From an uncultured Spirochaetota bacterium (GTDB lineage: Bacteria > Spirochaetota > Spirochaetia > SZUA-6 > Fen-1364): a DNA stretch of 64,000 bases. A model generated the notes under the pieces. It was not told where the DNA came from, ran no database searches, and saw only the letters and a list, made by a program, of their open reading frames with translations. Shown piece after piece: positions 44,431-63,445 of the stretch (position 1 is the stretch's first letter; the number at the start of each line of letters is the position of its first letter). The stretch lies in assembly GCA_963820435.1 (NCBI GenBank), contig CAWGAC010000009.1, forward strand, positions 68,991-132,990. The letters are read 5' to 3'. The translations under genes and the position numbers were made by a program.

Positions 44431-44459
44431 TTGACGGACTTCCTCGTCGGGGCTATATT
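44431..44459 (+). promoter_or_regulatory. candidate sigma-70 promoter of the membrane-protein/wHTH/ABC cluster
   Basis: TTGACG (44431-44436), 17 nt spacer, TATATT (44454-44459). Confidence 0.5.
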
Positions 44460-44465
44460 TCAATT

Positions 44466-44484
44466 AAGTTTATACCATAAACTT
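44466..44484. promoter_or_regulatory. 19-bp palindromic operator candidate
   Basis: AAGTTTAT-ACC-ATAAACTT with perfect 8-bp arms, between the -10 box and the RBS. Confidence 0.5.
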
Positions 44485-44500
44485 GTTTATGGAGGCGCAT

Positions 44501-45588: not shown

Positions 45589-45606
45589 AAGAGAGGGAGC
45601 AGCAGT

Positions 45607-46317: not shown

Positions 46318-46319
46318 AC

Positions 46320-47576: not shown

Positions 47577-47588
47577 GGAGGAGCCTTC

Positions 47589-48836: not shown

Positions 48837-48847
48837 GGGGAGAGGCC

Positions 48848-49591: not shown

Positions 49592-50698
49592 AAATCACGA
49601 CCCTCGCTGCCGCGGCGGTGATTGCCGGCATGATTGCCGCCCCTGCCAGTGCCCAGGACACGGCCTCCTGGAGCCTGGGCGGGTCCGTGACCGCGCAGCC
49701 CTATGCTGCCTATGCCGGCAACGGATCCCTGGGAGCCGCGGACTTCTCATACGGCTCGGATACGACCCTCGGTCTCGACCTGCGCGCCCTGGGCGAGCGC
49801 GCCCGGGCCGAAGCCTCGGTGGAGGCTGCCGTGCTGACCGGCGCATCGGCCCTTGCCGCCTGGGCTGCATCGGCATCCGGTCTCGCGCGGCCGGACGAGC
49901 TGCTTGTCCCCGGCACCGCCCCTGCCGCGCCCGCGGCGGAAACTCTCGTGGCCTTCAGGCTTCGCACCCTCTACCTCAAGCTCGACTTCGACTGGGCTTC
50001 ACTGACTGCGGGGCGCCAGGTGGTCAATTACAACCGCGGCGTTCTGTGGAGCCCGACTGACCTGTTCAACGAGCTCGACCTGACAGGGCTCTCGCCGGTC
50101 CGCCTGGGAAGCGATGCGCTCCGCGCGGCCGTCCCCCTGGGCGCGACAGACCGGCCTCGATCTCGTGGCGGCGCCCACGACCGCGCCCGCCGACGGCCGC
50201 TACTCCGCCCGTCTGTCAGCTCTTATTGCCGGCGTGGACGGCGCGCTCACCGCGGCCCGTGCCGGGAAGGGCTGGATGTTCGGCGCTGACTTCAAGGCCG
50301 ACATCGAAGTCGGCATCTATGGCGATGTCGCCTGCTCCCTGCCGGACTCGGGCCAGGCAGGCGCGCTTCGCGCGGCGGCCGGGGTCGACTGGTCCATTGG
50401 CGACTTTGTGATGGCGGCCGAGTATTACTATAACGGAGGCGGCGCCGAGGCAGACCCCCTGTTTCCCGGCACTCACAACCTCTATGCGTCCCTCCTCTGG
50501 AATGCCACGGAGCTGTTCAGCCTTTCGGAAACGGTCATCTGGGATATCGCGGACGGGTCGGGCACGGCCCTGCTTCTCGGATCCCTCAGCGCGGCCCAGA
50601 ACGCCACGTTCCAGGCCTACCTGAAAGCCGGCTACGACCCGGCGCTGGCCGCGCGGGCCGGCGTGCAGGCGGGATTGAACATAGAGGTGAAGTTCTAA
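49588..50698 (+). pseudogene. putative outer-membrane beta-barrel protein; one frameshift
   Basis: ATGA overlap with the LolA-like gene. MKITTLAAAAVIAGMIAAPASAQ signal. Frame changes at about 50151 (AVPLGATD|GLDLVAAP). Alternating-pattern strands and a C-terminal …GLNIEVKF (aromatic terminus). Confidence 0.6.
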
Positions 50699-52245: not shown

Positions 52246-53286
52246 ATGGTCAAAATATCAGGCAGGAAGCTGGAGCGGCTGGAGCATCTGGCCGACTCGC
52301 GGGGCGTGATCGCGGCGGCCGCGATGGACCAGCGCGGCTCGTTGAAAAAGTCCATTGCCAAGGAAAAGGGCGTGGATCCGTCACAGCTCTCCGATGACGT
52401 GATGAGCGAGTTCAAGGAGGCGGTCAGCAGGGTGCTCACGCCGCATGCCACCGCCATCCTCCTGGATACCGAGTTCGGCCAGCGCGCCATCAAGGCGCGC
52501 GCCAGGAACGCGGGCCTTCTGCTGGCATATGAGAAAACCGGCTACGATGCAACGCAGCCGGGAAGGCTGGGTGATCTGCTGGATCACCTGAGCGTCCAGC
52601 GCCTCGCGGCGTTCGGAGGAGATGCGGTGAAGCTCCTCCTTTACTACGCCGCGGACGACGATCCCCAGGTCAACGACATCAAGCACGCATGGATCGAACG
52701 GATAGGAGCGGAGTGCGCCGCGGAGGAGATGCCGCTGTTCCTCGAAATCGTGACGTATGATCCCAGGGGCGGGGAGGAAAAGAGCGTCTCATTTGCAAAG
52801 CGCAAGCCCGATCTGGTCATGGGGTACATGAGGGAGTTCTCCAAGCCCCAGTATCGCGTGGACGTGCTGAAAGTCGAGATCCCCTTCGATATCGCATTCG
52901 TCAAGGGGTCCAAGGCGAACAAGAGCGGCCAGGCGGCCTACGAAAAGCAGGAGGCCAAGGACATCCTCCTGCGAGCCGCCCGGTGCACGCACCTGCCGTT
53001 TATCTATCTTTCAGCCGGCGTGGACGATGACGTCTTTCGCGAGTCGCTCATCATGGCGGGAGAAGCCGGCGTGCCGTTCGCGGGGGTTCTCTGCGGCCGG
53101 GCCACGTGGAAAGAGGGAATACCCGTCTACGCGAAACGCGGGGCAAAGGCGCTGGAAGACTGGCTTGCCGACCGCGGCGTGAAAAACATCGAGACGCTGA
53201 ACGATGTATTGAAGCAGTACGCAAAGCCCTGGTACGCCGCGTACGGCGGACGTGACAAGGTGCAGGCGGTCGCGCGGACGGATTGA
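52246..53286 (+). CDS. class I tagatose-1,6-bisphosphate aldolase family protein (LacD-like)
   Basis: 346 aa. LADSRGVIAAAAMDQRGSL…AILLDTEFG…VKLLLYY…. Confidence 0.8.
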   Translation: MVKISGRKLERLEHLADSRGVIAAAAMDQRGSLKKSIAKEKGVDPSQLSDDVMSEFKEAVSRVLTPHATAILLDTEFGQRAIKARARNAGLLLAYEKTGYDATQPGRLGDLLDHLSVQRLAAFGGDAVKLLLYYAADDDPQVNDIKHAWIERIGAECAAEEMPLFLEIVTYDPRGGEEKSVSFAKRKPDLVMGYMREFSKPQYRVDVLKVEIPFDIAFVKGSKANKSGQAAYEKQEAKDILLRAARCTHLPFIYLSAGVDDDVFRESLIMAGEAGVPFAGVLCGRATWKEGIPVYAKRGAKALEDWLADRGVKNIETLNDVLKQYAKPWYAAYGGRDKVQAVARTD

Positions 53287-53316
53287 ACCCTCAGGGTTGG
53301 CCTCTCGGCGGCTCTC

Positions 53317-53337
53317 GGCGTTTGCTTTGCAAACGCC
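53317..53337. terminator. hairpin 1 in convergent intergenic region
   Basis: GGCGTTTGC-ttt-GCAAACGCC, perfect 9-bp stem. Confidence 0.5.
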
Positions 53338-53348
53338 TGCCGCCCTCC

Positions 53349-53365
53349 GCACGCCTTCGGCGTGC
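53349..53365. terminator. hairpin 2 in convergent intergenic region
   Basis: GCACGCC-ttc-GGCGTGC, perfect 7-bp stem. Confidence 0.45.
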
Positions 53366-53403
53366 TACGCATCCCTGGCCTCGGCCACCCTCGCCATCCA
53401 ACT

Positions 53404-53419
53404 CCGCGGAATACCGCGG
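53404..53419. terminator. hairpin 3 in convergent intergenic region
   Basis: CCGCGG-aata-CCGCGG, 6-bp stem, 6 nt from the quinone-reductase stop. Confidence 0.4.
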
Positions 53420-53424
53420 AAGGG

Positions 53425-54387
53425 CTACGGAATCAGCACGATCTTGCCGAACGCGCCGGGCTCCAGCACTTTGCGGTGAGCCTCCGCAGCGTTTGCAAGC
53501 GGCAGCTCGGCTCCCACCACGGGGCTCAGCGTCCCATTGTCCAGCCCGGCAACGAGAGCGGCGTGGGCAGCCTCCACGTCCTGGTCGGAGATGTTCCACA
53601 ACAACATGCCATAGACCGCCGCGTCCCTGGACATCAGGTCCCGCGGATTGATGGTCGCCTCCCCGCGATTGCCGATCACCACAACGCGTCCGCGCGGCGC
53701 CAGCAGCTTCAAGTCAGCGCCGAGGTTGACGTTGGCGAGCATCTCGAGGATGACATCGACCCCCCTGTCCCCCGTCAACTCCCTCACCTGATCCTGGTAG
53801 CCGGCCGTCCGGTGATCCACCACGTGGTGCGCGCCCTCGCGGAGGACCAGATCCCGGCCCTTGTCCGTGCCGGCGGTGCCGATCACCCTCATGCCCCGGG
53901 CCCGCGCAAGCTGCACCGCCGCGACGCCGACCCCGCCGCTCGCGCCATGGACGAGGAGCGTTTCCCCTCCGCGGGCATGCGCAAGCTGCTCGAGCGCCCG
54001 ATAGGCGGTGGTGTAGGGCACGAACACGGCGGCGCCCTGGGCCCACGAGATCCGCTCGGGAAGCGGCTGGACCTGGGACTCCAGCGCGAGAGCGTATTCG
54101 GCGTACGTCCCGCTCACCGTCCGGGCCGTGTACACACGATCACCCGGCTTCACCCGGCGAATGCCGGATCCCACGGTCTCTATGACTCCGGCGCCGTCCG
54201 TGCCCGGTGTGTAGGGAAGCTCGGGCTTGCGCGAGTAGCTCCCGCTGCGCACATAAGTGTCGGCCGGATTGACGCCGGCCGCCTTGATGCGAACCACGAC
54301 CTGCCCCGGACCCGGCTTCGGCAGGGGGATCTCAGCGAGCTTCAGCACCTCGGGTCCGCCAAACTCCTTTACGACGATCGCTTTCAT
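53425..54387 (-). CDS. NADPH:quinone oxidoreductase (MDR/zeta-crystallin family)
   Basis: 320 aa. MKAIVVKEFGGPEVLKL…VHGASGGVGVAAVQLA. The ATG overlaps the kinase stop (ATGA). Confidence 0.9.
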   Translation of the reverse strand: MKAIVVKEFGGPEVLKLAEIPLPKPGPGQVVVRIKAAGVNPADTYVRSGSYSRKPELPYTPGTDGAGVIETVGSGIRRVKPGDRVYTARTVSGTYAEYALALESQVQPLPERISWAQGAAVFVPYTTAYRALEQLAHARGGETLLVHGASGGVGVAAVQLARARGMRVIGTAGTDKGRDLVLREGAHHVVDHRTAGYQDQVRELTGDRGVDVILEMLANVNLGADLKLLAPRGRVVVIGNRGEATINPRDLMSRDAAVYGMLLWNISDQDVEAAHAALVAGLDNGTLSPVVGAELPLANAAEAHRKVLEPGAFGKIVLIP

Positions 54388-56258
54388 GGTTCCTCCTCAG
54401 CGTCAGCCGTCGATTCAGGCAGCCGGATATCGAATTGGCACCCGGAGCTTTCGAGGTTCTTGACGCTCATGCTCCCTCCGTGCCTCTGCACGATCTGGTA
54501 GCAGATCGATAAACCGAGCCCGATGTTGTCCCCCTTCCCCTTCCGTGTCGAGTAGAAGGGTATGAATATGTCATTGAGGTTCGTATCCTGGATTCCCGGC
54601 CCTGAGTCGGTAAATGTCACATTCACCGCGCCCCTGCCCTGCTCATCCCGCGTCCGGCGGGTTTCTATGTTGATGATCCCGCCGGCGGGCATGGCCTCGA
54701 AGCTGTTCTTCACCAGGTTGAGGACCACCTGCTTCATCTCGTTCCTGTTGACCGTGGCCATGAGCGTCTTTTCCGGCGAATCGAACGTGATCGTGATGTG
54801 CTTGTAATCCGCGTTATGACGGAGGAGGCTCAGTATGTTGCGGATCAGGTCATTGAGGTCGATCTCCTCCCTTTCCACCGTGTCCATGTTCGAAAGGGAA
54901 AGGAGATTCTTCACGATGCCCGCGATATAGGTGATCTCCTCATGCAGCTCGTCGACCGCCTCGTGCAGCTTCTTGTCATCGAACGAGAACTTGATGTGCG
55001 TCAGATAGTTGTAGACGATTTCCAGCGGATTATTGATCTCGTGCGCGACCCCGGCGGCGAGCAGGCCGAGTGAAGCGAGCTTCTCCGAGAGGATGACCTG
55101 TTTCTGCAGCTTGTCGAACTCGGTGACGTCTTCGATGATGATGATGTTCCCGATGCGCGCTCCCTCGTCATAGATGGGGAGGGTCCTGACATTGTTCACC
55201 GTGTCCGCTCCGCCAATGACCAGCGGGACGTGGTAGAATGCCCTGCCTTCGTCGGAGAGCAGCGCATCCCGTATGAGCCCGAGCGTCCCGCTGTTCCGCG
55301 CCCCCAGCAGGTCCGCGAGCGGCTTGTCCTCGAATTGCACGCCTTCGAGGCGGAAGTATTCCCTGCAGCGCTCGTTCACGATCTTGACGTTCTCCTGCGC
55401 GTCACTCACGATGAGGTTCACCGGCAGATTGAGCAGGACCGCCTCGTTGTACTTGAGGAACTGGTTGAACTCGCGTTTCAGGTTTCCCGAATCGTTGCGC
55501 GCGTAGACCTGCGTATAGGTGAGCTTGAGCAGGTTCATCCTGTCGATGTGCTCGACGTCATCCGTCACCAGGATCTCGCCGTTCTTGACTATGCTGACAC
55601 GGTCCGCCACGTCGTAGACGTCGTCAATGCGGTGCGTGATGAAGAGAACGGCCATGCCTTCCTTTTTCATCCCGTCCACGATGCGCAGCACCCGGGCGAG
55701 ATCTCCCGAGGACAGCTTCTCCAGGGCTTCGTCCAGGATCAGCAGTCTCGGTCTTTTCTGCAGCGCGCACAGGATCGAGGTCAGGACCCGGTCGGGAAGG
55801 TTGAGGTGGCTCACCGTCGCGGAAGCGTCGAGATTGAAGTCGTGGGAAGAGAGGTATTCCTCCGCATGGCGCAGGATGTCCCTCCTGCTCAGCATGCCCC
55901 AGCGCTTCAACTTTCCGTCCAGGAAAAAGATGTTCTCGGCCACGGAGAAATAGTCGTTGAGCTGGACCTGCTGGTGCACCATCTCGATGCCCATGCGATG
56001 CGCAAGACTCGTGGACAGGGCGGCGTATCTCCCGCTGCCGAATTCGATGGATCCCCTCTTGGGCTTCATGTTGCCGCTGATGACCATGCCGAGCGAGGAT
56101 TTTCCCGCTCCATGCTCCCCCACCACCGCATGGACCTTCGAGGGAAAGAGGGAGAGGCTGACGTCTTTCAGCGCTTCGATCTGGCCATAGTCCAGCGATA
56201 TGTGGGCAAGACGGAGCAGCTCGTGGGTTTCGCCCCCGATGCTACGCATTGATCCCAT
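54384..56258 (-). CDS. soluble sensor histidine kinase with N-terminal ABC-type nucleotide-binding domain (NBD-PAS-HisKA-HATPase_c)
   Basis: 624-aa uninterrupted ORF. NBD: GEHGAGKSS, VHQQ, LLILDEA, ITHR. PAS-like region at about aa 265-385. HisKA AAGVAHEINNPL. HATPase DSGPGI…GLGLSICYQIV. No TM segment. Confidence 0.9.
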   Translation of the reverse strand: MGSMRSIGGETHELLRLAHISLDYGQIEALKDVSLSLFPSKVHAVVGEHGAGKSSLGMVISGNMKPKRGSIEFGSGRYAALSTSLAHRMGIEMVHQQVQLNDYFSVAENIFFLDGKLKRWGMLSRRDILRHAEEYLSSHDFNLDASATVSHLNLPDRVLTSILCALQKRPRLLILDEALEKLSSGDLARVLRIVDGMKKEGMAVLFITHRIDDVYDVADRVSIVKNGEILVTDDVEHIDRMNLLKLTYTQVYARNDSGNLKREFNQFLKYNEAVLLNLPVNLIVSDAQENVKIVNERCREYFRLEGVQFEDKPLADLLGARNSGTLGLIRDALLSDEGRAFYHVPLVIGGADTVNNVRTLPIYDEGARIGNIIIIEDVTEFDKLQKQVILSEKLASLGLLAAGVAHEINNPLEIVYNYLTHIKFSFDDKKLHEAVDELHEEITYIAGIVKNLLSLSNMDTVEREEIDLNDLIRNILSLLRHNADYKHITITFDSPEKTLMATVNRNEMKQVVLNLVKNSFEAMPAGGIINIETRRTRDEQGRGAVNVTFTDSGPGIQDTNLNDIFIPFYSTRKGKGDNIGLGLSICYQIVQRHGGSMSVKNLESSGCQFDIRLPESTADAEEEP

Positions 56259-57574
56259 ATCGCTCCATCTTGTTGTACAGCGTCTTCCTGCTCATGTTCA
56301 GAAGCTGCGCGACCCGGGACCTGTTGTAGTTGGTGCTCTGGAGGGTCTTCAGGATCAGGTGCTTTTCCATATCCTCACGGATGTTGCGAGGGGTCGCGTT
56401 CAGCCCGCCGTCCAGGAAGCTGACCGGGAGGTCCTCCATCCCGATCCGTTCGCCCGCCGACATTGCCACCGAATAGTTGATCGTATTCTTCAGCTCTCTG
56501 ACGTTCCCCGGCCACGAGTGATCGAGGAACCGGGCCAGGACTTCCGGGGCAACCTCCTTCCGGGCGCCGGGGCTGGAATCGTGATACTCCGCCAGGAAAT
56601 GTTCGACGAGCAGAGGGATGTCCTCTTTCCTCTCCCGGAGGGGAGGAACGGTAAGCACCGCCGCATTGAGCCTGTAGAAGAGGTCTTCGCGGAACAGGTT
56701 TTTCTCCATCAACGCTCCGAGGTCCTTGTTCGTGGCGGCGATGAAGCGCACATCCACCCGGATCGTCTCGCTCCCCCCCAGCCTTCTGATCTCGCTGTTC
56801 TGGAGGGTCCGGAGGATCTTTGCCTGGATACCGAGGGGCATGTCTCCGATCTCGTCGAGAAACAGGGAGCTTCCATTGGCCTTCTCGAACACCCCCTTGA
56901 AGGCGGAATCCGCGCCGGTGTATGCCCCCCTCTCGTGCCCGAACAGCTCGTTGTCCAGGAGGGTCTCGGGAAAAGCGACGCAATTGATTTTGATCATCTT
57001 CCGGGCGCCGCGCGCGGAGCTCGGCATGGATATTGTCCGCGATGACCTCCTTGCCGGTCCCGCTCTCGCCGCAAATCAGAACCGGGAGATTGGTGGCCGC
57101 GAGCTTCTCCACCTTCCGGCAGAGGTCGAGCATGCGTGCGTCCTGGGTGACGATGGTCGCGGAGAGCTCCATGAGCCGGCTGCGCAGCTGGACGTTTTCT
57201 TCCCGCAGCCTCGAGCACTCGTACGCGTTCTCCACGGTCTTCAGAAGCTCGTCGAAATCAAGCGGCTTCTTCACGTAGTCGAACGCCCCCAGCTTGATCG
57301 ACTGTACAGCCGTATCTATGGACGCGTACGCGGTGATCATGATCACGGGGACCCGGGCGTTGATTGCCAGGAGGCGCTTGAGGATATCAATGCCGCTCTC
57401 ATCGGCCAGCATCACGTCCAGAAGAACGACATCGATCCTGTTGTCGGAAAAAACCGCGACTGCCTGCTGGCCATTGGTCGCGTAGAAAGCCTTGTAACCG
57501 ACGTGCTCGAAGTTCCAGGCCAGGCTCTTGCAGAGCTTCTCTTTATCGTCGATGACCAGGATGCTGCTTTTCAT
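56242..57574 (-). pseudogene. sigma-54-dependent response regulator (NtrC/Fis family: REC + AAA+ + HTH); one frameshift
   Basis: ORF 56375..57574 (REC: ILVIDD…VVLLDVMLADESG; Walker A GESGTGKEVIADNIHA) joins ORF 56242..57027 (SSARGARKMIKINCVAFPE…ERGAYTGA…VRELKN…SRVAQLLNMSRKTLYNKM) at about 57022. Confidence 0.9.
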
Positions 57575-57659
57575 CTGTTGATTGTCACCAAGTTACCCAA
57601 TCGCCCCTCGCAATATGAGTAATTTTTACGCACTCACTATAGGGCCGTTGCCTGCGGGC

Positions 57660-57679
57660 TGTCAACGATTTTCTTGACA
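57660..57679. promoter_or_regulatory. candidate enhancer (UAS) for the NtrC-type regulator
   Basis: Perfect inverted repeat TGTCAA-N8-TTGACA centred about 80 bp upstream of the -24 element. Confidence 0.45.
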
Positions 57680-57703
57680 TCAGCATAATTCCTTACAAGA
57701 ATG

Positions 57704-57717
57704 CTATTTAAAAATAG
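57704..57717. promoter_or_regulatory. AT-rich palindrome between UAS and sigma-54 promoter (possible bending/IHF-type site)
   Basis: CTATTT-AA-AAATAG, the only A/T-only stretch in this intergenic region. Confidence 0.3.
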
Positions 57718-57746
57718 AGTGCTTCCCAGCCCTGGGTCGAGACGAT

Positions 57747-57762
57747 TGGCATGAGAAATGCT
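57747..57762 (+). promoter_or_regulatory. sigma-54 (-24/-12) promoter
   Basis: TGGCATGAGAAATGCT. The GG and GC are 12 nt apart, exactly as in TGGCAC-N5-TTGC. It lies 61 nt upstream of the SBP ATG, next to the NtrC-type regulator gene. Confidence 0.7.
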
Positions 57763-57822
57763 TGGGAGGATAGCAAATCTGGAAGTTTTCCAGGGTTCCC
57801 ATCCGAAGAAGGAGGAGAGAGC

Positions 57823-58767
57823 ATGAAGAAATTGCTGTTCATTCTCGTTGCGGTGTCGCTCGTATTTGCCGCAACATCCGCGACAGCCCAGGCAAAGGGA
57901 CAGATCAAGCTCGCCATGGTGAACCTGGCGCTCACGAGTCCCTATTTCATCGGCATGTCCCAGGCGGTCAAGCAGGAGTGCGATCGCTTCACGAACATCA
58001 AGCTCGTCACCACCGATGCAAAGGGCGACGCGCAGAAGCTGACCTCTGACGTGGAGGACGTCCTGGCCCAGAACGTGAACGGGCTCATCATCAGCGCTGC
58101 ATGGCTGGAGGCGGCCCCTGAAGCACTGGACGCCATCCAGAAGGCAGGAGTACCCGTGGTGCTCGTGGACAGGAAGCTGAAAGGCGGAGACTATACGAGC
58201 TGGGTCGGCCCCGACAACACGCGCATCGGCGTCCAGGACGGCGAGTACATCGTGAAGCGGCTGAACGGCAAAGGCCGGGTCGTGGTCCTGCGGGGCGGGC
58301 CCGCGGACAACTCCATTGGCCTGGATCGGACCAACGGGATGCTTTCCGCGGTAAAGAAGGCGGGCATGGAAGTCGTCATGGCCCCGAACTTCGGCGGCTG
58401 GAGCTCCGACGGCGGGTTCAAGCTCATGGAAGACATGCTTGCCAAGTACAAGAAGATCGACGCGGTCTTCGCGGAGAACGACTCCATGGCACTGGGCGCG
58501 CAGAAAGCCATCGCCGATGCGGGACGCTCCAAAGAGATGTTCCTTTGCGGCGCTGACGGCGAGAAAGCCGCCCTCGTTGAAATCAGCAAGAAAGCGAACT
58601 TTGCCGCCACAGGGCTTAACAGCTCGGACCAGATCGGCCGCGCGGGGTTCACCCGACTCATGTCGCTCCTGGCAGGCGCGCAGTCTGAAAAGGACACGAT
58701 ACTGCCCTCACCCCTCATCACCATCGACAACGTCGCTCGGTTCCTCATTCCCGAGAGCGTATTCTAA
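57823..58767 (+). CDS. periplasmic sugar-binding protein (RbsB-like, CUT2)
   Basis: ORF 57751..58767. Start moved to ATG 57823 (RBS GAAGGAGGAG; signal MKKLLFILVAVSLVFAATSATAQA). Confidence 0.9.
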   Translation: MKKLLFILVAVSLVFAATSATAQAKGQIKLAMVNLALTSPYFIGMSQAVKQECDRFTNIKLVTTDAKGDAQKLTSDVEDVLAQNVNGLIISAAWLEAAPEALDAIQKAGVPVVLVDRKLKGGDYTSWVGPDNTRIGVQDGEYIVKRLNGKGRVVVLRGGPADNSIGLDRTNGMLSAVKKAGMEVVMAPNFGGWSSDGGFKLMEDMLAKYKKIDAVFAENDSMALGAQKAIADAGRSKEMFLCGADGEKAALVEISKKANFAATGLNSSDQIGRAGFTRLMSLLAGAQSEKDTILPSPLITIDNVARFLIPESVF

Positions 58768-58774
58768 GCCATTG

Positions 58775-58802
58775 CCATGACCTCCCTTCGGGGAGGTCAT
58801 GG
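58775..58802 (+). other. intercistronic stem-loop after SBP gene
   Basis: CCATGACCTCCC-ttcg-GGGAGGTCATGG. Perfect 12-bp stem with a UUCG loop, 8 nt after the SBP stop. Confidence 0.75.
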
Positions 58803-58823
58803 CCTGTTTCAGGGAGAACGTCA

Positions 58824-60287
58824 ATGCAAATGCTCATCGACGGCAGGTGGGTCGACGCCCGCGACGGAAAGACCCGCTCCATTCGAAATCCGGGAAACGG
58901 CGAGGCGATCGATACCGTCCCTATGGCCACGCTCCGGGACGTGGACGCTGCACTGGAGGCGGCCGTTGCGGGAAGCGCGCGCATGCGCGCCACCCCCGCC
59001 CATGCGCGATCGGCAATCCTCGCCCGCGCGGCCGACATCATAGGCTCGAGGAAAGAGGAGCTCGCGACGCTTCTGGCCCGGGAGAACGGGAAGCCGATCC
59101 GCCAGACGAGGGACGAGATCGAGGTCGCCTCCCGGATTTTTCGCGGGTTCGCCGAGGAGGCCAGGCGGCTCTTCGGCCGCACCGTCCCCATGGACGCGAT
59201 ACCCGGGCAGGAGCGGCATTTCGCCATGACCATCAGGCAGCCGCTGGGAGTCGTGGCCGCGATTGTTCCCTTCAACTACCCGGCGGAGCTCTACGCGCAC
59301 AAGGCCGCCCCCGCGCTCGCGGCAGGCAACGCGGTGATTGCCAAGCCGCCCAGCGACTGCCCTCTCACGATGCTCCGGATTGCCGCGATACTGGAGGAGG
59401 CGGGCCTCCCCCGCGCGGCCCATCAGATGATCACAGGGCCGGGTCAGCTTGTCGGCGAGCGCCTGGCCATGAGTCCCATCGTGCGACTCGTCTCGGTGAC
59501 GGGAAGCACGGCAGTGGGAAAGCGGCTCGCGCAGCTCGGCGCGGAGACACTGAAAAAGATCCACCTGGAGCTCGGCGGCAACGATCCGGTCATCATCTGC
59601 GCGGACGCGGATCTGGAGAAGGCGGCCGAGGCCGTGGTCCTGGGCCGGCTGGCGCGCGGGAACGGGCAGATCTGCTGCGCGGTCAAGCGCGTGTTTGTCG
59701 ACGCGCGCGTCATGGACAAGTTTGCGAAGCGTCTCGTGGAAAAGGCCGCGGCCCTCAAGGTGGGGGATCAGCTTGACGAGGACACCGACGTGGGACCGCT
59801 CATCACGGAGGAGGCCGCCCGGAAGGTGGAGGACGCGATTGGAGACGCGGTGAAGGCGGGCGCAAAAATCCTGTTCGGCGGCGGGCGTCGTGGTTCGTTC
59901 ATGATGCCGACCGTCCTGACCAACGTGCCCGTGGGGACGCATCTGTTCAAGGACGAGACCTTCGGCCCCGTGGCGCCTCTGGTCGCCTTTTCCACCGAAG
60001 ATGACGCGGTGCGCATGGCCAACGACAGCCCCTTCGGGCTGCAGGCAGCCGTATTCACCGCCGATATCACGCGGGCAATGAACATGGCCTGGCGCCTGGA
60101 GGTGGGGGGCGTGATCGTGAACTGGTCCTCGGCCCTCCGTGCGGAGAATCTCCCCTTCGGGGGAACCAAGGCGAGCGGGTACGGCCGCGAGGGTCTGCAC
60201 GACACGCTCCTCGAAATGACGGAACAGAAGGTGATCCTGTTCCACAACGCGCTCTCGGTGTACGATGCCGGGCAGGCCGGTGCATGA
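58824..60287 (+). CDS. NAD(P)-dependent aldehyde dehydrogenase
   Basis: 487 aa. …FNYPAEL…, ELGGNDP, …GQICCAVKR… (catalytic Cys), …PFGGTKASGYGREG. Confidence 0.9.
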   Translation: MQMLIDGRWVDARDGKTRSIRNPGNGEAIDTVPMATLRDVDAALEAAVAGSARMRATPAHARSAILARAADIIGSRKEELATLLARENGKPIRQTRDEIEVASRIFRGFAEEARRLFGRTVPMDAIPGQERHFAMTIRQPLGVVAAIVPFNYPAELYAHKAAPALAAGNAVIAKPPSDCPLTMLRIAAILEEAGLPRAAHQMITGPGQLVGERLAMSPIVRLVSVTGSTAVGKRLAQLGAETLKKIHLELGGNDPVIICADADLEKAAEAVVLGRLARGNGQICCAVKRVFVDARVMDKFAKRLVEKAAALKVGDQLDEDTDVGPLITEEAARKVEDAIGDAVKAGAKILFGGGRRGSFMMPTVLTNVPVGTHLFKDETFGPVAPLVAFSTEDDAVRMANDSPFGLQAAVFTADITRAMNMAWRLEVGGVIVNWSSALRAENLPFGGTKASGYGREGLHDTLLEMTEQKVILFHNALSVYDAGQAGA

Positions 60288-61819
60288 GCAATGAGAGCTT
60301 CCTCCGCATGGAGGCCATACACAAAAGGTTCGGCGGCACGGTGGCCTTGCGGAACGTCTCCATGTCCGCCGCCCTCGGCGAGGTCCACGCCGTCGTGGGG
60401 GAAAACGGAGCCGGCAAGTCCACGCTCATGAACATACTCTCCGGAGCCGTCACTCCGGACTCGGGAACAATTGCAATAGGCGGCAGGACGGTCGTTCTGG
60501 ACACGCCGCACGAGGCAAACCGGTTGGGGATCCGCGCGGTGCACCAGGAGTTCAGCCTTGTGCGTCACCTGACCATTGCGGAGAACATCCTCATGGGCAA
60601 GATGCCTACGCGCGGCTCAGGACGCGTGTGGGTGGACTGGGCCGGCACCAACCGACGCGCCCGCTCGATCCTGGACGACCTCGGGTTTCCGCACCTGGAC
60701 GTGCGCACGCGCGTCTCACACCTGAGCGTATCCCACCAGCAGATCGTGGAGATTGCCAAGGCCCTCGCCGAGAAACCCCGCATCCTCATCCTGGACGAAC
60801 CCTCGGCCGTTCTCTCCAAGGATGAGCTGACGCTGTTGTTTTCCCTCATCCGGAGGCTTGCGGCGGAGAATACCCTCGTCATCTACATCTCCCACAGGCT
60901 GGAGGAGGTCTTCGAGATAGCCGATCGTATCACCGTTCTCAGGGACGGTGAGGTCGTGGGCACCGTTCGCCGGGACGAGGTGGACCAGAACGCCCTGATC
61001 CGCATGATGGTGGGCCGTTCCGTTGAAGAGATCTATCCCGCGCGCGCCGCGCGGTCCGCGGAGGAGATCCTGTCCGTGCAGGGGCTTGGCCGCGCGGGGG
61101 AGTTCCACGACGTTTCCTTTTCTCTCCACGGGGGAGAGGTCGTCGGAGTGTTCGGCCTTGTGGGGAGCGGAAGAACCGCCGTGGCCCGCAGCATCTTCGG
61201 GGCTGAGCCGCCGACATCCGGCAGCGTCTTTCTGGACGGCAGGAAGGTACACGTGAAATCCCCCCAGGACGCGGTGAACGCGGGGATCTCCTTTGTGACG
61301 GAGGACAGGAAGCGGGACGGGCTGGTGATGAGCTGCACGCTGCGTGACAACATCAGCCTGGCCACTCTGCGTCACATGAGCCATGGATTGATCCTGGATC
61401 GACGGCTGCAGGACAGGATGGTGCAAAGCAAGGTGGATGAGCTGGCCATCCGTCCGTCGGACATCGGGCAGAAGGCCTGGACGCTGAGCGGGGGCAACCA
61501 GCAGAAGGTAGTCATTGCGAAATGGCTGCTCTCCCGCACCAGGGTCCTGCTGCTGGACGAGCCTACCCGGGGCGTGGACATCGGCGCGAAGGTCGAGATC
61601 TATCACATCATCAATGGTCTCGTGGAGGCGGGGATCGGGGTCCTGCTCATCTCGTCGGAAATGTCCGAGGTACTGGGCATGAGCGATCGAATCATCGTCA
61701 TGAGGGAGGGACGGCTCGTGGGAAATCTCACCAGGGCGGAGGCCGACGAAGAGAAGCTGCTCCAGTACGCCGCCGGCGTGGACGGGGCGGCCACCATACA
61801 GGCGAGGGGAACAACATGA
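60284..61819 (+). CDS. CUT2 sugar ABC transporter ATP-binding protein (tandem NBDs)
   Basis: 511 aa. GENGAGKST, LSVSHQQIVEIAKAL, LSGGNQQKVVIAKWL. ATGA overlaps on both sides. Confidence 0.95.
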   Translation: MSNESFLRMEAIHKRFGGTVALRNVSMSAALGEVHAVVGENGAGKSTLMNILSGAVTPDSGTIAIGGRTVVLDTPHEANRLGIRAVHQEFSLVRHLTIAENILMGKMPTRGSGRVWVDWAGTNRRARSILDDLGFPHLDVRTRVSHLSVSHQQIVEIAKALAEKPRILILDEPSAVLSKDELTLLFSLIRRLAAENTLVIYISHRLEEVFEIADRITVLRDGEVVGTVRRDEVDQNALIRMMVGRSVEEIYPARAARSAEEILSVQGLGRAGEFHDVSFSLHGGEVVGVFGLVGSGRTAVARSIFGAEPPTSGSVFLDGRKVHVKSPQDAVNAGISFVTEDRKRDGLVMSCTLRDNISLATLRHMSHGLILDRRLQDRMVQSKVDELAIRPSDIGQKAWTLSGGNQQKVVIAKWLLSRTRVLLLDEPTRGVDIGAKVEIYHIINGLVEAGIGVLLISSEMSEVLGMSDRIIVMREGRLVGNLTRAEADEEKLLQYAAGVDGAATIQARGTT

Positions 61820-62769
61820 AAGCGACACTCCCGCTCATGGAGAGGGCACGACAGATGGTGAGGCTGCGGTGGTCCGACTTCATCTTCATGGGGATTTTCG
61901 TCGTGTTGATACTGATCAGCTCCCTCATTTCCGAGACCTTTTTCACTACAAGGAACCTGATCAACATCTCCCGCCAGATCGTCACCAACGGTCTCATCAG
62001 CCTCGGCATGCTGATCGTGATGCTCACCGGCGGCGTGGACCTTTCCGTAGGATCCATCGTGGCAATCTGCGGCATCATGGCCACCGGATTGCAGAAACAG
62101 ATGCCCACCCCGGTGGCAATCCTCGTCGCGCTCATGGTCGGGACTACCGTCGGGATGGCCAACGGCTTTTTCATCGCACGTTTCAAGCTGCAGCCCTTCA
62201 TCGTGACCCTGGCCACCATGGGCATCATTCGCGGCGCGACCTACGTTTACTCGGAAACGCCGCAATCACCCGTGGATCCGCTGTTTCGTTCGCTCCTGGG
62301 CGGTGGTTTCGTCGGACCTATTCCGAGGTCGGCAATCATCATGCTCGCCTTCTTCATAGTCGTGTGGTTCTTTCTCAACAGGACAATCCCGGGTCGCGCC
62401 GTTGTGGCCATTGGGGGGAACGAGGAAGCGGTGCGGCTTGCCGGCATAAACGTCAAGGGTCACCTCCTCATGGCCTACATGGTCTGTGGTCTTTTTGCGG
62501 GCTTCGCGGGTGTCCTCCTGGCCTCCCGGCTTGGCATCGCGCAACCGAGCTTCGGGCTCGGCTTCGAGATGGATGCGCTTGCCGCCGTGGTCATCGGGGG
62601 GGGAATCATGGGCGGGGGTGGCGGCGGAGCCATCGGGACGTTGTGGGGGGTGCTCATCCTGGGGGTCATCGACAACCTGTTGAACCAGTACAACGTCCAG
62701 TCGTATTATCAGCAGATCATCAAGGGTCTCATCATTCTTGCCGCGGTGCTCTCGCGGAGGAAAAAATGA
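61816..62769 (+). CDS. CUT2 (RbsC-type) ABC transporter permease
   Basis: Start at ATG 61816 (MKATLPLMERARQ…) inside ORF 61522..62769. GGVDLSVGS motif, multi-TM. Confidence 0.9.
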   Translation: MKATLPLMERARQMVRLRWSDFIFMGIFVVLILISSLISETFFTTRNLINISRQIVTNGLISLGMLIVMLTGGVDLSVGSIVAICGIMATGLQKQMPTPVAILVALMVGTTVGMANGFFIARFKLQPFIVTLATMGIIRGATYVYSETPQSPVDPLFRSLLGGGFVGPIPRSAIIMLAFFIVVWFFLNRTIPGRAVVAIGGNEEAVRLAGINVKGHLLMAYMVCGLFAGFAGVLLASRLGIAQPSFGLGFEMDALAAVVIGGGIMGGGGGGAIGTLWGVLILGVIDNLLNQYNVQSYYQQIIKGLIILAAVLSRRKK

Positions 62770-62803
62770 GATCAGAGTATCCGCGCAGGGGGAGGATTGG
62801 GCA

Positions 62804-63445
62804 GTGAGCGATATCAACAGGCCGGACTACGAGAAGCGCGTGCGTGACCTGGGCTTCGCCATCCCCCAGGTGCCCGCGGCCATGGGTCTCTATGTTCACG
62901 CGGTGAGGACCGGTTCCCTTGTGTTCTGTTCGGGGCAGGGACCCTCCGTAGAAGGAGTGTTGAAGTACATCGGCAAGGTCGGGGACACCCTGACGCAGGA
63001 GGACGGATACCAGGCCGCGCGCATTTGCGCGCTCAACTGCCTGGCAGAGGTCCGCTCTGTGATCGGCTCCCTGAACAAGATACGCCGGATCGTGAGCCTT
63101 CGGGGATTCGTGAACAGCGCACCTGATTTCTTCGACCAGCCCAAGGTCGTGAACGGGGCTTCCCAGCTCATGCTGGACGTGTTCGGAGAGGCGGGCAGGC
63201 ACGCGCGCGCCGCGCTGGGCACATCCAATCTCCCCTTCAACATCGCCGTCGAGCTGGAGATGGTCGTCGAGGTGGCCGAGGATGACCGGGAGAGCGGCGA
63301 AGTCAGTCGGGCCGTCGCCGCCTTCAGCCCAGCTTTCCCTCTCCGCGAGACAGCGCGTATCTGCCAGGACCGAGAAAAAAAATCACCACCGCGGTCAGCA
63401 GGTAGAAAGCCTCCAGCTCGATGCCCCATCCGCCGCCGCGGCTGA
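62804..63445 (+). CDS. RidA/YjgF-family protein; 3' end uncertain
   Basis: GTG 62804 after GGGGGAGGA. …LVFCSGQGP…RARAALGTSNLPFNIAVELEMVVEV covers a complete RidA domain by about 63285. The ORF then runs 160 nt further and overlaps the convergent DoxX gene by 122 nt. Confidence 0.75.
   Translation: MSDINRPDYEKRVRDLGFAIPQVPAAMGLYVHAVRTGSLVFCSGQGPSVEGVLKYIGKVGDTLTQEDGYQAARICALNCLAEVRSVIGSLNKIRRIVSLRGFVNSAPDFFDQPKVVNGASQLMLDVFGEAGRHARAALGTSNLPFNIAVELEMVVEVAEDDRESGEVSRAVAAFSPAFPLRETARICQDREKKSPPRSAGRKPPARCPIRRRG

What the first reader, a model, noticed from the sequence alone, without database searches (positions are those of the whole stretch)
53425..63445. Candidate transporter-coupled signalling system: NBD-kinase, NtrC-type regulator, sigma-54 promoter and CUT2 importer/ALDH/RidA
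Gene order and overlaps indicate one functional unit. On the minus strand the regulator (57574→56242) overlaps the kinase start by 17 nt. The kinase stop overlaps the quinone-reductase ATG (ATGA). Divergently, a sigma-54 promoter precedes SBP, ALDH, tandem-NBD ATPase, permease and RidA, joined by ATGA overlaps at ALDH/ATPase and ATPase/permease.

The kinase NBD is a paralogue of the importer's own ATPase. The simplest hypothesis is that it senses transport activity or occupancy of this importer, conceptually like flux-sensing by Bce-type transporter/kinase pairs, and feeds back on sigma-54 transcription of the operon. The substrate is unknown. The presence of ALDH, RidA and Qor hints at an aldehyde- or imine-generating catabolic route.
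Basis: inference. Interest (0 to 1): 0.7.

Follow-up and report, generated by a model that had tools for sequence, protein, structure and literature searches.

The report
Histidine kinase carrying a transporter ATPase domain
A soluble sensor kinase whose input domain is a copy of one half of a sugar-importer ATPase sits, with its sigma-54 regulator, next to such an importer in at least four bacterial phyla; this looks like an undescribed way of tying gene control to a transporter, though the mechanism is only inferred.

Summary
One thing was missed: in this window the regulator gene carries a 1-bp insertion at 57024. It reads as two ORFs here but is an intact 443-aa gene in six independent assemblies.

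The kinase (624 aa) is cytoplasmic, with the domain order ABC NBD – PAS – HisKA – HATPase. It belongs to a large unnamed family: at least 120 full-length clusters at 50% identity, reaching down to about 27% identity. Members occur in Spirochaetota, KSB3, Planctomycetota, Verrucomicrobiota and Desulfobacterota.

A sigma-54 response regulator lies immediately upstream of the kinase in all 26 related loci outside the window's own population (L007-L019, L042-L047, L126-L130). A CUT2 importer lies beside the pair in 10 of 11 informative module groups, with differing cargo genes and gene orders, and a -24/-12 promoter precedes the importer operon in all 10. The control set was 78 loci around similar kinases that lack the NBD; none has a CUT2 importer.

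The kinase NBDs form one clade, sister to the N-terminal NBD of CUT2 ATPases. They keep the Walker A, Q-loop, Walker B and H-loop motifs but lack an ABC signature.

The most likely function is that the NBD reports the importer's state to the kinase. This is inferred, not shown. The main rival is that the PAS domain senses a cytoplasmic ligand. I found no description of this family in the literature searched.

The parts
54384..56258 (-). Cytoplasmic sensor histidine kinase, 624 aa (alternative start 56249 gives 621 aa). Domain order: ABC NBD, PAS, HisKA/DHp, HATPase_c.
   Evidence: Pfam ABC_tran 1.3e-18, PAS_4 8.7e-8, HisKA 2.3e-8, HATPase_c 2.7e-21. AF2 model pLDDT 86.5. No hydrophobic segment: maximum KD19 is 1.37. 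A 100% identical 621-aa protein, P0001, is found in 23 contigs read; the search output lists 14.
55515..56219 (-). NBD input domain, residues 14-248, of CUT2 NBD1 type. Walker A GEHGAGKSS (K53), Q-loop Q96, Walker B LLILDE (D176/E177) and H-loop H209 are kept. The ABC signature is degenerate (LNLPDR, 152-157) and the D-loop is lost (LEKL).
   Evidence: Motif alignment. Conservation across the family in 120 representatives. NCBIfam best NBD hits are the N-terminal halves of YtfR, AraG, XylG and RbsA. Foldseek: LptB TM 0.87. NJ tree places it sister to CUT2 NBD1.
55116..55430 (-). PAS domain, residues 277-381.
   Evidence: Pfam PAS_4. AF2 strands and helices over residues 281-377. It is the fastest-diverging domain between paralogous modules.
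54411..55115 (-). DHp (H-box AAGVAHEINNPL, phospho-acceptor H406) and the catalytic ATP-binding domain.
   Evidence: Pfam HisKA and HATPase_c. G403, A405, H406 and E407 are invariant in 50 diverse members. Foldseek matches YF1 (4gcz), ThkA and ZraS.
56242..57574 (-). NtrC/AtoC-type sigma-54 response regulator (REC, AAA+ with GAYTGA, HTH_8). In this window it is frameshifted by one extra base at 57024.
   Evidence: Pfam hits on the two ORFs. Single-base insertion relative to L001, L002 and L005, with catgCCgag in place of catgCgag. blastn against L001-L006 shows the same insertion. The gene is an intact 443 aa in L001-L006.
57593..57632 (.). Conserved half-sites TTACCCA (57593-57599), TGAGTAA (57616-57622) and TTACGCA (57626-57632). 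Candidate regulator-binding sites, about 115-155 bp upstream of the -24 element and inside the leader of the regulator-kinase operon.
   Evidence: Phylogenetic footprint in 12 Spirochaetia intergenic regions. Coordinates. Binding is inferred, not tested.
57636..57665 (-). Sigma-70-like promoter for the divergent regulator-kinase operon: TTGACA, 18 nt, TATAGT.
   Evidence: Matches 11 of 12 consensus positions. Both hexamers fall in conserved blocks of the 12-locus alignment. A GTCAAG-type block recurs in distant clade A loci.
57747..57762 (+). Sigma-54 -24/-12 promoter, TGGCAT-N5-ATGCT, 61 nt upstream of the SBP start codon.
   Evidence: Only match in the window, against 0.17 expected. The GGCAyG...TGC core is conserved in 12 loci. 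Equivalent elements precede the importer operons of L042-L045, L126-L129 and the second module of L128.
57779..57793 (+). Near-invariant palindrome CTGGAAGTTTTCCAG in the leader between the sigma-54 promoter and the ribosome-binding site. Function unknown: an operator or a small leader hairpin.
   Evidence: The core GGAAGTTTTCC is exact in the leader of 17 related loci; in L012 the leader copy differs by one base. The only other exact copy in the window lies inside a coding gene. The leader as a whole folds no better than shuffled sequence, z -0.27.
57823..58767 (+). Periplasmic substrate-binding protein, RbsB/AlsB-like, 314 aa with a signal peptide.
   Evidence: Pfam Peripla_BP_4 5.2e-47. NCBIfam RbsB 6.6e-39, below the family cut-off.
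58774..58803 (+). Intercistronic hairpin after the SBP gene (13-bp stem, UUCG loop).
   Evidence: -29 kcal/mol, z -3.96. The stem is kept through different sequences in 11 related loci.
58824..60287 (+). Aldehyde dehydrogenase, 487 aa.
   Evidence: Pfam Aldedh 1.4e-156. The nearest NCBIfam model is lactaldehyde dehydrogenase, 489 bits against a cut-off of 650. It occupies the same position wherever that stretch is on the contig: 12 of the 13 Spirochaetia loci L007-L019, L010 being cut off upstream of the regulator.
60284..61819 (+). CUT2 tandem-NBD ATPase, 511 aa. NBD1 has canonical Walker A, Q-loop and H-loop but a degenerate signature. NBD2 has degenerate Walker A, Q-loop and H-loop but a canonical LSGGNQQK signature.
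   Evidence: Pfam ABC_tran twice. NCBIfam AraG, XylG and RbsA at 1e-150 to 1e-158, below the cut-offs. Motif table.
61816..62769 (+). CUT2 permease (BPD_transp_2, RbsC/AraH-like), 317 aa. It is the only permease gene, so presumably a homodimer.
   Evidence: Pfam 1.4e-46. NCBIfam RbsC 4.6e-74, below the cut-off.
62804..63445 (+). RidA/YjgF-family gene with a GTG start. It is 158 aa in relatives. In the window the stop is lost in a variable patch (63276-63315) and the ORF runs on to 63445.
   Evidence: Pfam YjgF_endoribonc 6.3e-27. Alignment with L005.
53425..54387 (-). Quinone-oxidoreductase-like MDR reductase, translationally coupled to the kinase (ATGA). Not part of the conserved module.
   Evidence: Pfam ADH_N and ADH_zinc_N. 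NCBIfam PIG3-type, 234 bits against a cut-off of 297. Present only in the window's own population (L001-L006) and in L016.

Best explanation
This is one copy of a conserved four-part regulatory module:
(1) a cytoplasmic histidine kinase whose N-terminal input domain is an ABC nucleotide-binding domain of the CUT2 NBD1 type, followed by PAS, DHp and CA domains;
(2) a cognate NtrC/AtoC-type sigma-54 activator;
(3) a sigma-54 promoter;
(4) the CUT2 sugar-type ABC importer operon that this promoter drives, here SBP-ALDH-ATPase-permease-RidA.

Shown by sequence and comparison: the architecture, the conservation of the module, the promoter, and the specific association with CUT2 importers.

Inferred mechanism: the kinase has no membrane or periplasmic part. 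It therefore learns about the external substrate through the importer.
- Its NBD1-like domain binds ATP. It docks on the importer, either on the coupling helices of the homodimeric permease or against the signature-bearing NBD2 of the tandem ATPase.
- Docking of substrate-loaded SBP, or transport cycling, changes the position or closure of the two NBDs in the kinase dimer.
- The PAS and coiled-coil region passes this change to the DHp domain. H406 is autophosphorylated and the regulator is phosphorylated.
- The regulator binds the TTACNCA-type sites and activates sigma-54 transcription of the importer and catabolic operon. It probably also damps its own sigma-70 promoter, which those sites overlap.

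In this particular window the regulator is frameshifted. This is most likely an assembly or sequencing error.
For: Architecture: Pfam, AF2, Foldseek, no TM segment.

Family: at least 120 full-length 50%-identity clusters among the top 150 hits, down to about 27% identity.

Neighbourhood: the regulator is always directly upstream of the kinase. A CUT2 SBP, tandem ATPase and single BPD_transp_2 permease are adjacent in:
- the Spirochaetia loci: 12 of 13 (L007-L019) show the importer genes, L010 being cut off upstream of the regulator;
- L042, L043, L044 and L045, clade A;
- L126, L127 and L128 (two modules), clades C and A;
- L129, clade B.
Gene orders, orientations and cargo enzymes differ among these. 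The one clear exception, L130, has an NBD with a lost Q-loop and DE changed to DQ.

Control: 0 of 78 loci (795 kb) around NBD-less AtoS/ZraS-like kinases have any CUT2 component. 26 of these loci have a sigma-54 regulator.

Promoter: a -24/-12 element lies upstream of the importer operon in every CUT2-linked module.

NBD: the kinase NBDs form one clade, sister to CUT2 NBD1. Walker A, Q-loop, Walker B and H-loop are conserved across the family while the signature is not. The complementary canonical signature, LSGGNQQK, is found only in NBD2 of the CUT2 ATPases.
Against: - No physical or genetic interaction was or could be tested here.
- Every locus encodes a complete tandem ATPase, so no NBD site on the permease is obviously vacant. 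The kinase would have to compete for a site or bind elsewhere.
- The NBD1 tree of the importers is only partly congruent with the kinase tree. For example, L129 groups with clade A importers, and L044 groups with an importer that has no kinase. The pairing has therefore been reshuffled.
- The kinase NBD is no closer to its own neighbour's NBD1 than to others.
- Between paralogous modules the PAS domain diverges fastest: in clade C, PAS 0.31 against NBD 0.56. A ligand-specific PAS sensor would give this pattern.
- Adjacency alone is expected for any two-component system that regulates a neighbouring operon.
- In this window the regulator ORF is broken.
Confidence: 0.5

Rival explanations
1. Cytoplasmic ligand sensing by the PAS domain. 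The imported sugar, or a catabolite of it, binds the PAS domain and switches the kinase. The NBD is only an ATP-dependent dimerisation or energy-state module inherited from a CUT2 ATPase, and it never touches the transporter. The importer lies next to the kinase simply because it is the regulated target.
For: - PAS is the most divergent domain between modules with different cargo: clade A, PAS 0.48 against CA 0.60; clade C, PAS 0.31 against NBD 0.56.
- The central PAS residues are poorly conserved across the family.
- A complete ATPase is always present.
- The importer and kinase trees are partly incongruent.
- PAS-DHp-CA kinases of this YF1/ThkA type are known to sense through PAS; the Foldseek matches are.
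Against: - It does not explain why the partner is a CUT2 importer in 10 of 11 module groups whatever the cargo, while 0 of 78 related NBD-less kinases have one.
- It does not explain why the ATP-site motifs specific to the NBD1 half are kept under selection down to about 27% identity.
- It does not explain why the one module without a CUT2 neighbour has a decayed NBD.
Confidence: 0.3
2. Energy or ATP sensing. The NBD pair in the kinase dimer closes on ATP and reports the cellular ATP/ADP level, so that costly ABC import is induced only when energy is available. Substrate specificity would come from another regulator, for example one that binds the conserved leader palindrome at 57779-57793.
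For: - Walker A, Walker B and H-loop are conserved while the signature is not. This predicts stable nucleotide binding with slow hydrolysis.
- A near-invariant palindrome sits downstream of the promoter and could be the operator of a second, substrate-specific regulator.
Against: - A general energy sensor would not need to be duplicated once per importer in the same genome. Vecturithrix has at least 3 such modules and GCA_040772385 at least 2.
- No repressor gene is conserved in the loci.
- The palindrome is confined to the Spirochaetia orthologue group.
Confidence: 0.1
3. In this organism the system is a pseudogenised remnant. The regulator frameshift is real, so the operon is not controlled by this two-component system in the sequenced strain.
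For: There is a single-base insertion at 57024, and the window as given encodes no intact regulator.
Against: - Six independent assemblies from other samples, 99.7-99.9% identical, have the intact gene.
- The window carries a second isolated 1-bp insertion, at 50150, that likewise breaks a gene intact elsewhere.
- Related long-read MAGs (L012, L016, L018) show many such breaks. This pattern is typical of consensus errors.
- All other genes of the unit are intact.
Confidence: 0.15

Closest known systems
Bce-type flux-sensing modules (BceAB transporter with the BceS/BceR two-component system; PMC4513084, PMC10314905)
   Same: A histidine kinase without an extracellular sensor domain of its own. 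It is encoded next to an ABC transporter, is thought to read the transporter's activity, and induces that transporter.
   Different: - BceS is a membrane kinase with two TM helices that contacts the BceB permease in the membrane.
- BceAB is a MacB/FtsX-type exporter-like system, and BceR is an OmpR-type, sigma-70 regulator.
- Here the kinase is soluble, carries a fused NBD, partners with a CUT2 importer that has an SBP, and uses a sigma-54 activator.
MalK-MalT control of the maltose regulon (from my own knowledge of the E. coli system)
   Same: The conformational state of an ABC importer's NBD, resting or transporting, is passed to a transcription activator. This couples induction to transport.
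   Different: - MalK is the working ATPase of the transporter. It sequesters a separate STAND-type activator through its regulatory domain.
- Here an extra, non-transporter NBD is fused covalently to a histidine kinase, and the working ATPase is encoded separately.
PhoR-PhoU-PstSCAB phosphate signalling (own knowledge; the PstSCAB structure paper PMC12976172 appeared)
   Same: A PAS-containing histidine kinase receives its signal from the cytoplasmic face of an ABC importer, not from a ligand in the periplasm.
   Different: - The link runs through the adaptor PhoU and the transporter's own PstB.
- PhoR is membrane-anchored and has no NBD.
- The regulator is OmpR-type.
Transporter-domain-fused kinases such as CbrA and CrbS, which have an SLC5/SSS domain fused to a histidine kinase (own knowledge)
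   Same: Part of a transporter is fused covalently to a histidine kinase as its input module.
   Different: In those proteins the fused part is the membrane permease of a secondary transporter. Here it is the soluble ATPase domain of a primary (ABC) transporter.
AtoS/AtoC and ZraS/ZraR sigma-54 two-component systems
   Same: - The PAS-HisKA-HATPase half is closest to AtoS (NCBIfam 9.5e-62 over residues 260-620).
- The regulator is closest to AtoC (1.4e-135), with the same REC-AAA+-HTH_8 architecture.
   Different: - Scores are far below the equivalog cut-offs: 209 against 646 for the kinase, and 453 against 714 for the regulator.
- AtoS and ZraS are membrane proteins with periplasmic or TM input domains. 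Here that input is replaced by an NBD.

Membership tests
Two-component system with an NtrC-type sigma-54 activator | HisKA H-box with a phospho-acceptor His, plus a HATPase_c catalytic domain | tested here: met
   Pfam HisKA and HATPase_c. H406 and the G403/A405/E407, N518 and D551/G553/G555 boxes are invariant in 50 members.
Two-component system with an NtrC-type sigma-54 activator | Regulator with REC, an AAA+ sigma-54 interaction domain (GAFTGA loop) and a Fis-type HTH, intact | tested here: inconclusive
   All domains are present, including GAYTGA. In the window the ORF is broken by a 1-bp insertion at 57024. It is an intact 443 aa in L001-L006.
Two-component system with an NtrC-type sigma-54 activator | A -24/-12 promoter (GG-N10-GC) in front of the target operon | tested here: met
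   TGGCATgagaaATGCT at 57747-57762, unique in the window. It is conserved in orthologues and present in all distant CUT2-linked modules. Activity was not tested.
CUT2 (carbohydrate uptake transporter 2) ABC importer | Peripla_BP_4-type SBP, a single polypeptide with two NBDs, and a BPD_transp_2 permease | tested here: met
   Pfam. The best NCBIfam hits are RbsB/AlsB, AraG/XylG/RbsA and RbsC/AraH, all below the equivalog cut-offs, so the substrate is unassigned.
Catalytically complete ABC-transporter NBD (applied to the kinase's NBD) | Walker A, Q-loop, Walker B with catalytic Glu, and H-loop | tested here: met
   GEHGAGKSS, Q96, LLILDE and H209, conserved across the family.
Catalytically complete ABC-transporter NBD (applied to the kinase's NBD) | ABC signature LSGGQ and D-loop SALD | tested here: not met
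   LNLPDR in the window; the family consensus LSLSDR is weakly conserved. LEKL stands in place of the D-loop.
Bce-type flux-sensing module | Intramembrane-sensing kinase (two TM helices, no input domain), BceB/FtsX-type permease, OmpR-type regulator | tested here: not met
   The kinase has no hydrophobic segment. The permease is BPD_transp_2 and the regulator is sigma-54 type.
Bce-type flux-sensing module | Physical kinase-transporter complex and a response proportional to flux | not testable with these tools
   This needs interaction and reporter experiments.
AtoS/AtoC equivalogs | NCBIfam equivalog score above the cut-off | tested here: not met
   Kinase 209 bits against a cut-off of 646, over the C-terminal half only. 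Regulator 453 against 714.
NBD-PAS-HK family (unnamed; defined here) | About 600-625 aa, with full-length collinear NBD1-type NBD, PAS, HisKA and HATPase_c; a sigma-54 regulator gene directly upstream | tested here: met
   Full-length matches to at least 120 representative clusters. The regulator is upstream in all 26 related loci outside the window's own population (L007-L019, L042-L047, L126-L130).

The most novel reading that the evidence does not exclude
The kinase dimer places its two NBD1-like domains on the coupling helices of the homodimeric CUT2 permease, in place of the tandem ATPase. This would form a non-transporting receptor complex (SBP, permease dimer, kinase dimer). In it, docking of substrate-loaded binding protein is relayed across the membrane by the ABC transmission mechanism itself and read out as histidine autophosphorylation. 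That would be an ABC 'transceptor', a new class of transmembrane signalling in which a soluble kinase borrows a transporter's membrane domain.
Probability: 0.2. Interest if true: 0.88.

Novelty: new variant of a known kind. Interest (0 to 1): 0.72.

Why it matters
How bacteria tell that an ABC importer has substrate is understood for only a few systems, such as MalK-MalT, Pst-PhoU-PhoR and BceAB-BceS. In each of these the link is non-covalent and was hard to find.

Here the link is written into the domain architecture. A transporter-type NBD is fused to a kinase, and the fusion is kept next to CUT2 importers across several phyla, often in several copies per genome.

If the NBD really reads the transporter, three things follow:
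- It would give a compact and widespread model for transport-coupled signalling.
- It would explain how many environmental anaerobes (peat Spirochaetota, Planctomycetota, KSB3) induce sugar uptake through sigma-54.
- It would offer a modular part for biosensors, because specificity would be set by the SBP.

If the NBD does not read the transporter, the family still defines an unstudied ATP-binding input domain for histidine kinases.

Tried and rejected
- The exact-sequence look-up of the 624-aa ORF failed. Public gene calls start at the second ATG; the 621-aa form (P0001) was found.
It returned 78 generic NBD-less kinases and just two true family members, L046 and L047. Their contigs stop at the regulator, so the upstream importer position cannot be seen. 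I reused the 78 loci as a negative control.
- The look-up of the Desulfomarina member P0093 failed.
- I looked for a solved CUT2 ATPase or transporter in the PDB, to map the coupling-helix groove onto the kinase NBD. There is none by sequence; the best hits are LivG-like and other unrelated NBDs. Interface conservation could therefore not be scored.
- Six literature searches on NBD-kinase fusions and transporter co-sensing found no description of this architecture. The library lacks most subscription journals, so this is not proof of absence.
- Rejected: that the kinase NBD is a recent duplicate of the neighbouring ATPase.
- Rejected: that the kinase supplies a missing ATPase. A full tandem ATPase is always present.
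- Rejected: that the leader palindrome GGAAGTTTTCC is a site for a global regulator. The only other copy in the window lies inside a coding gene.
- Rejected: that Qor belongs to the conserved unit.

Full report
**1. What is in the window**

On the minus strand:
- a quinone-oxidoreductase-like reductase (53425-54387);
- a 624-aa kinase (54384-56258) with ABC_tran (residues 30-179), PAS_4 (277-381), HisKA (397-459) and HATPase_c (506-616);
- an NtrC-type regulator (57574 to 56242).

On the plus strand:
- a Peripla_BP_4 binding protein (true start 57823);
- an aldehyde dehydrogenase (58824-60287);
- a tandem-NBD ATPase (60284-61819);
- a BPD_transp_2 permease (61816-62769);
- a RidA/YjgF-family gene.

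The junctions are as stated. The kinase stop and Qor start share ATGA, as do ALDH/ATPase and ATPase/permease. The regulator stop overlaps the kinase start by 17 nt, or by 8 nt from the second ATG. The -24/-12 element TGGCATgagaaATGCT at 57747-57762 is the only match to TGGCAY-N5-WTGCW in the 64 kb, against 0.17 expected.

**2.

The span 57574-56242 is 1333 nt, so the regulator is split into two ORFs. I aligned it with six independent assemblies that carry an identical kinase (L001-L006; JGI, ENA and Logan samples; 99.7-99.9% identical DNA).
- The window has one extra base at 57024 (catgCCgag in place of catgCgag). The other assemblies encode an intact 443-aa protein reading ...NIHASSAR....
- Over the 18 kb shared with those assemblies, the only other isolated indel is another 1-bp insertion, at 50150. 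It breaks a gene that is intact elsewhere.
- Related long-read MAGs (L012, L016, L018) show many such breaks.

I therefore read both insertions as probable consensus errors, about 85:15 against a real pseudogene.

The window also differs in two other ways. A variable patch (63276-63315) removes the RidA stop codon. A 135-bp hairpin-rich insertion (53297-53431) lies between the convergent aldolase and Qor genes.

**3. The kinase**

- It has no hydrophobic segment: the maximum 19-residue Kyte-Doolittle mean is 1.37.
- The AF2 model (mean pLDDT 86.5) gives a confident NBD (15-248), a disordered linker (249-258), a helix, a PAS domain (281-377), a two-helix DHp and a CA domain.
- Foldseek matches the C-terminal 370 residues to PAS-kinases (YF1 4gcz, ThkA, ZraS) and the N-terminal 235 to ABC NBDs (LptB TM 0.87, MJ1267).
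- No NCBIfam model reaches its cut-off. The NBD is closest to the N-terminal halves of CUT2 ATPases (YtfR, AraG, XylG, GguA, RbsA). The remainder is closest to AtoS, and the regulator to AtoC.

**4. The family**

- The word-indexed search found 120 or more full-length homologues at 48% identity or above. They are annotated only as 'ATP-binding cassette domain-containing protein' or 'histidine kinase', and come from Spirochaetia, KSB3/Vecturithrix and Desulfomarina.
- In the exhaustive search against 50%-identity representatives, 120 of the best 150 hits are collinear full-length proteins of 585-660 aa, reaching down to about 27% identity. The list was truncated, so the family is larger than this.
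- Clustering gives three major clades. Clade A holds the window protein. Clade B is Planctomycetota. Clade C holds Spirochaetes, KSB3, Verrucomicrobia and the cultured Oceanispirochaeta sp. M2.
- Several genomes carry two or three paralogues.

**5. Neighbourhood test**

Within Spirochaetia, 13 species-level loci with 65-95% kinase identity have the regulator directly upstream of the kinase. Twelve of them also show the divergent SBP-ALDH-ATPase-permease operon, as far as their contigs reach; L010 is cut off upstream of the regulator. Qor appears only in the closest relatives. RidA appears only in the window's own population, L014 and L016.

Outside that orthologue group:

| Locus | Clade and source | Neighbouring genes |
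|---|---|---|
| L042, L043 | A; KSB3 and another genome | regulator-kinase divergent from ATPase-permease-SBP-FGGY kinase-2x G3PDH-like-RpiB |
| L044 | A | GFO_IDH-AP_endonuc_2-ATPase-permease-SBP |
| L045 | A | SBP-ATPase-permease |
| L126 | C; Oceanispirochaeta | importer downstream on the same strand |
| L127 | C; Spartobacteria | importer and an MCP upstream |
| L128 | C and A; Vecturithrix | two complete modules side by side |
| L129 | B; Planctomycetota | SBP-ATPase-permease-glycyl-radical enzyme |
| L130 | B; Planctomycetaceae | Opp/Dpp-type importer operon upstream; no CUT2 within 10 kb |

L130 is the one clear exception. L046 and L047 are uninformative, because their contigs stop at the regulator.

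In summary, the regulator is adjacent to the kinase in every case, and a CUT2 importer is adjacent in 10 of 11 informative module groups.

As a control I used the 78 loci (795 kb) that the metagenome scan returned for NBD-less kinases with the same H-box. Twenty-six of them have a sigma-54 regulator. None contains a CUT2 permease, SBP or tandem ATPase. The association is therefore specific to NBD-bearing kinases.

**6. Regulatory region**

A -24/-12 element lies just upstream of the first gene of the importer operon in every CUT2-linked module. My stricter scan finds about 2-4 such sites per 20 kb on both strands, so chance placement in the right 250 bp and orientation has a probability of roughly 0.02 per locus.

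Alignment of the 12 Spirochaetia intergenic regions shows five conserved blocks:
- three TTACNCA/TGNGTAA half-sites (57593-57632);
- ACTATAG and CTGTCAAC, which on the minus strand form TTGACA-18-TATAGT, an 11/12 sigma-70-type promoter for the regulator-kinase operon;
- the -24/-12 core;
- a near-invariant palindrome, CTGGAAGTTTTCCAG (57779-57793);
- the ribosome-binding site.

The half-sites lie 115-155 bp upstream of the -24 element and inside the leader of the divergent operon. This is the geometry expected for an enhancer-binding activator that also autoregulates. That reading is inferred.

**7. Origin and state of the NBD**

An NJ tree was built from kinase NBDs, the NBD1 and NBD2 halves of the neighbouring ATPases, and outgroups. 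It puts all kinase NBDs in one clade, sister to CUT2 NBD1. Mean identities are 0.29 to NBD1, 0.20 to NBD2 and 0.23 to the outgroups. Identity to the cognate NBD1 (0.297) is no higher than to non-cognate NBD1s (0.285). The fusion is therefore ancient and not a local duplication.

The motif table shows three things.
- CUT2 ATPases have one consensus ATP site. It is built from the Walker A, Q-loop, Walker B and H-loop of NBD1 together with the LSGGNQQK signature of NBD2.
- The reciprocal site is degenerate: in NBD2 the Walker A Lys is Arg and there is no Q-loop Gln or H-loop His, and NBD1 contributes only an LSVxxQQ signature.
- The kinase NBD keeps exactly the NBD1 half (GEHGAGKSS, Q96, LLILDE, H209). 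These motifs are conserved across 120 representatives. Its signature is more degenerate still (LNLPDR) and the D-loop is gone.

So the domain is under selection to bind ATP, and perhaps to hydrolyse it with a partner. A kinase homodimer cannot form a canonical ATP sandwich on its own. The only canonical signature available in the module is that of the transporter's NBD2.

In the L130 exception, the Q-loop Gln is lost and Walker B reads DQ.

**8. Mechanism**

Shown:
- the module anatomy;
- its conservation;
- the specific link to CUT2 importers;
- the sigma-54 promoter.

Inferred: the soluble kinase obtains information on substrate availability from the importer through its NBD1-like domain. 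It would do so either by docking on the coupling helices of the single-gene, presumably homodimeric, permease, or by pairing with NBD2. The signal would pass through PAS and DHp to phosphorylation of the regulator.

The main argument is specificity. The cargo enzymes, gene order and lineage all vary, while the CUT2 machinery stays constant, and NBD-less relatives never have it.

Counter-evidence:
- a full ATPase is always present;
- the importer and kinase trees are only partly congruent;
- PAS is the fastest-diverging domain between paralogous modules, which fits the rival in which PAS binds a module-specific cytoplasmic ligand.

My estimates are about 0.5 for transporter coupling, 0.3 for PAS sensing with a transporter-independent NBD, and 0.1 for energy sensing. 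Separately, I put the chance that the frameshift in this window is real at 0.15.

**9. Comparison with known systems**

Conceptually the module resembles Bce flux sensing (PMC4513084, PMC10314905), MalK-MalT and Pst-PhoU-PhoR. It fails every testable defining feature of the Bce family: its kinase is soluble, its permease is BPD_transp_2, and its regulator is sigma-54 type. In none of those systems is an NBD fused to the kinase.

The nearest architectural analogy is the permease-fused kinases such as CbrA (own knowledge), with the ATPase domain of a primary transporter in place of a secondary-transporter permease.

Six full-text searches found no description of an NBD-histidine kinase. No NCBIfam model names the protein.

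I classify the module as a new variant of a known kind: transporter-coupled two-component signalling with a previously undescribed input domain.

**10. Substrate**

The substrate is unknown. The SBP, ATPase and permease are ribose/allose/arabinose/xylose-like, but all score below the equivalog cut-offs. The ALDH is nearest to lactaldehyde dehydrogenase, also below its cut-off. A LacD-family aldolase (52246-53286; NCBIfam PRK12858, above its cut-off) and an FrsA-like hydrolase lie next door, but only in the closest relatives.

Noticed in passing
window 57024: Single extra base (G on the + strand) that frameshifts the sigma-54 regulator. It is absent from six independent assemblies that are 99.7-99.9% identical.
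   Followed up: yes
window 50150: Second isolated 1-bp insertion relative to five of the six related assemblies (L005 does not cover this position). It splits a 369-aa gene with no Pfam match (ORFs 49459-50289 and 50114-50698) that is intact elsewhere. This suggests consensus errors in this assembly.
   Followed up: partly
window 53297-53431: A 135-bp insertion between the convergent LacD-like aldolase and Qor genes, absent from L001-L006. It folds into several perfect hairpins (-67 kcal/mol, z -5.2). Two partial matches occur in the related MAG L016. It looks like a small REP- or MITE-like repeat.
   Followed up: partly
window 63276-63315: Variable patch at the 3' end of the RidA gene. It removes the stop codon used in L002 and L005 (158 aa), so the ORF runs to 63445 and overlaps the convergent DoxX-family gene.
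   Followed up: partly
window 57779-57793: Palindrome CTGGAAGTTTTCCAG in the leader, between the sigma-54 promoter and the ribosome-binding site. It is near-invariant in the Spirochaetia orthologous loci (the leader copy in L012 differs by one base) and absent from distant modules. It could be an operator for an unidentified regulator or a small leader hairpin.
   Followed up: partly
window 58774-58803: Strong hairpin (13-bp stem, UUCG loop, -29 kcal/mol) between the SBP and ALDH genes. The stem is kept with different sequences in 11 related loci. It is probably a transcript-stabilising or attenuating element that raises SBP expression relative to the downstream genes.
   Followed up: partly
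window 57674-57702: A plus-strand sigma-70-like promoter (TTGACA-17-AAGAAT, 10 of 12) upstream of the sigma-54 promoter. It is not conserved in relatives. It might give basal expression of the importer.
   Followed up: no
window 44431-50698 (L001 11819-17311): Upstream neighbours: a small HTH regulator, a MacB-type ABC exporter (one ATPase and two MacB_PCD/FtsX permeases), a TP_0789-like lipoprotein and a 369-aa protein with no Pfam match. This looks like a separate, spirochaete-typical export cluster.
   Followed up: no
L128 10001-21815 (Candidatus Vecturithrix granuli): Two complete NBD-kinase, regulator and CUT2 modules from different clades (C and A) lie back to back. With L042, this genome has at least three such modules, which makes it a natural test case for insulation between paralogues.
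   Followed up: partly
L130 1-11863 (Planctomycetaceae MAG): The only module without a CUT2 neighbour. The regulator and kinase follow an Opp/Dpp-type importer, then RidA, a SelA-like gene, a hydantoinase and URO-D. Its NBD has lost the Q-loop Gln and the catalytic Glu (DE changed to DQ).
   Followed up: partly
L127 5658-8633 (Spartobacteria MAG): A 991-aa methyl-accepting chemotaxis protein is inserted between the CUT2 permease and the regulator-kinase pair on the same strand. This hints that the same importer may also feed chemotaxis.
   Followed up: no
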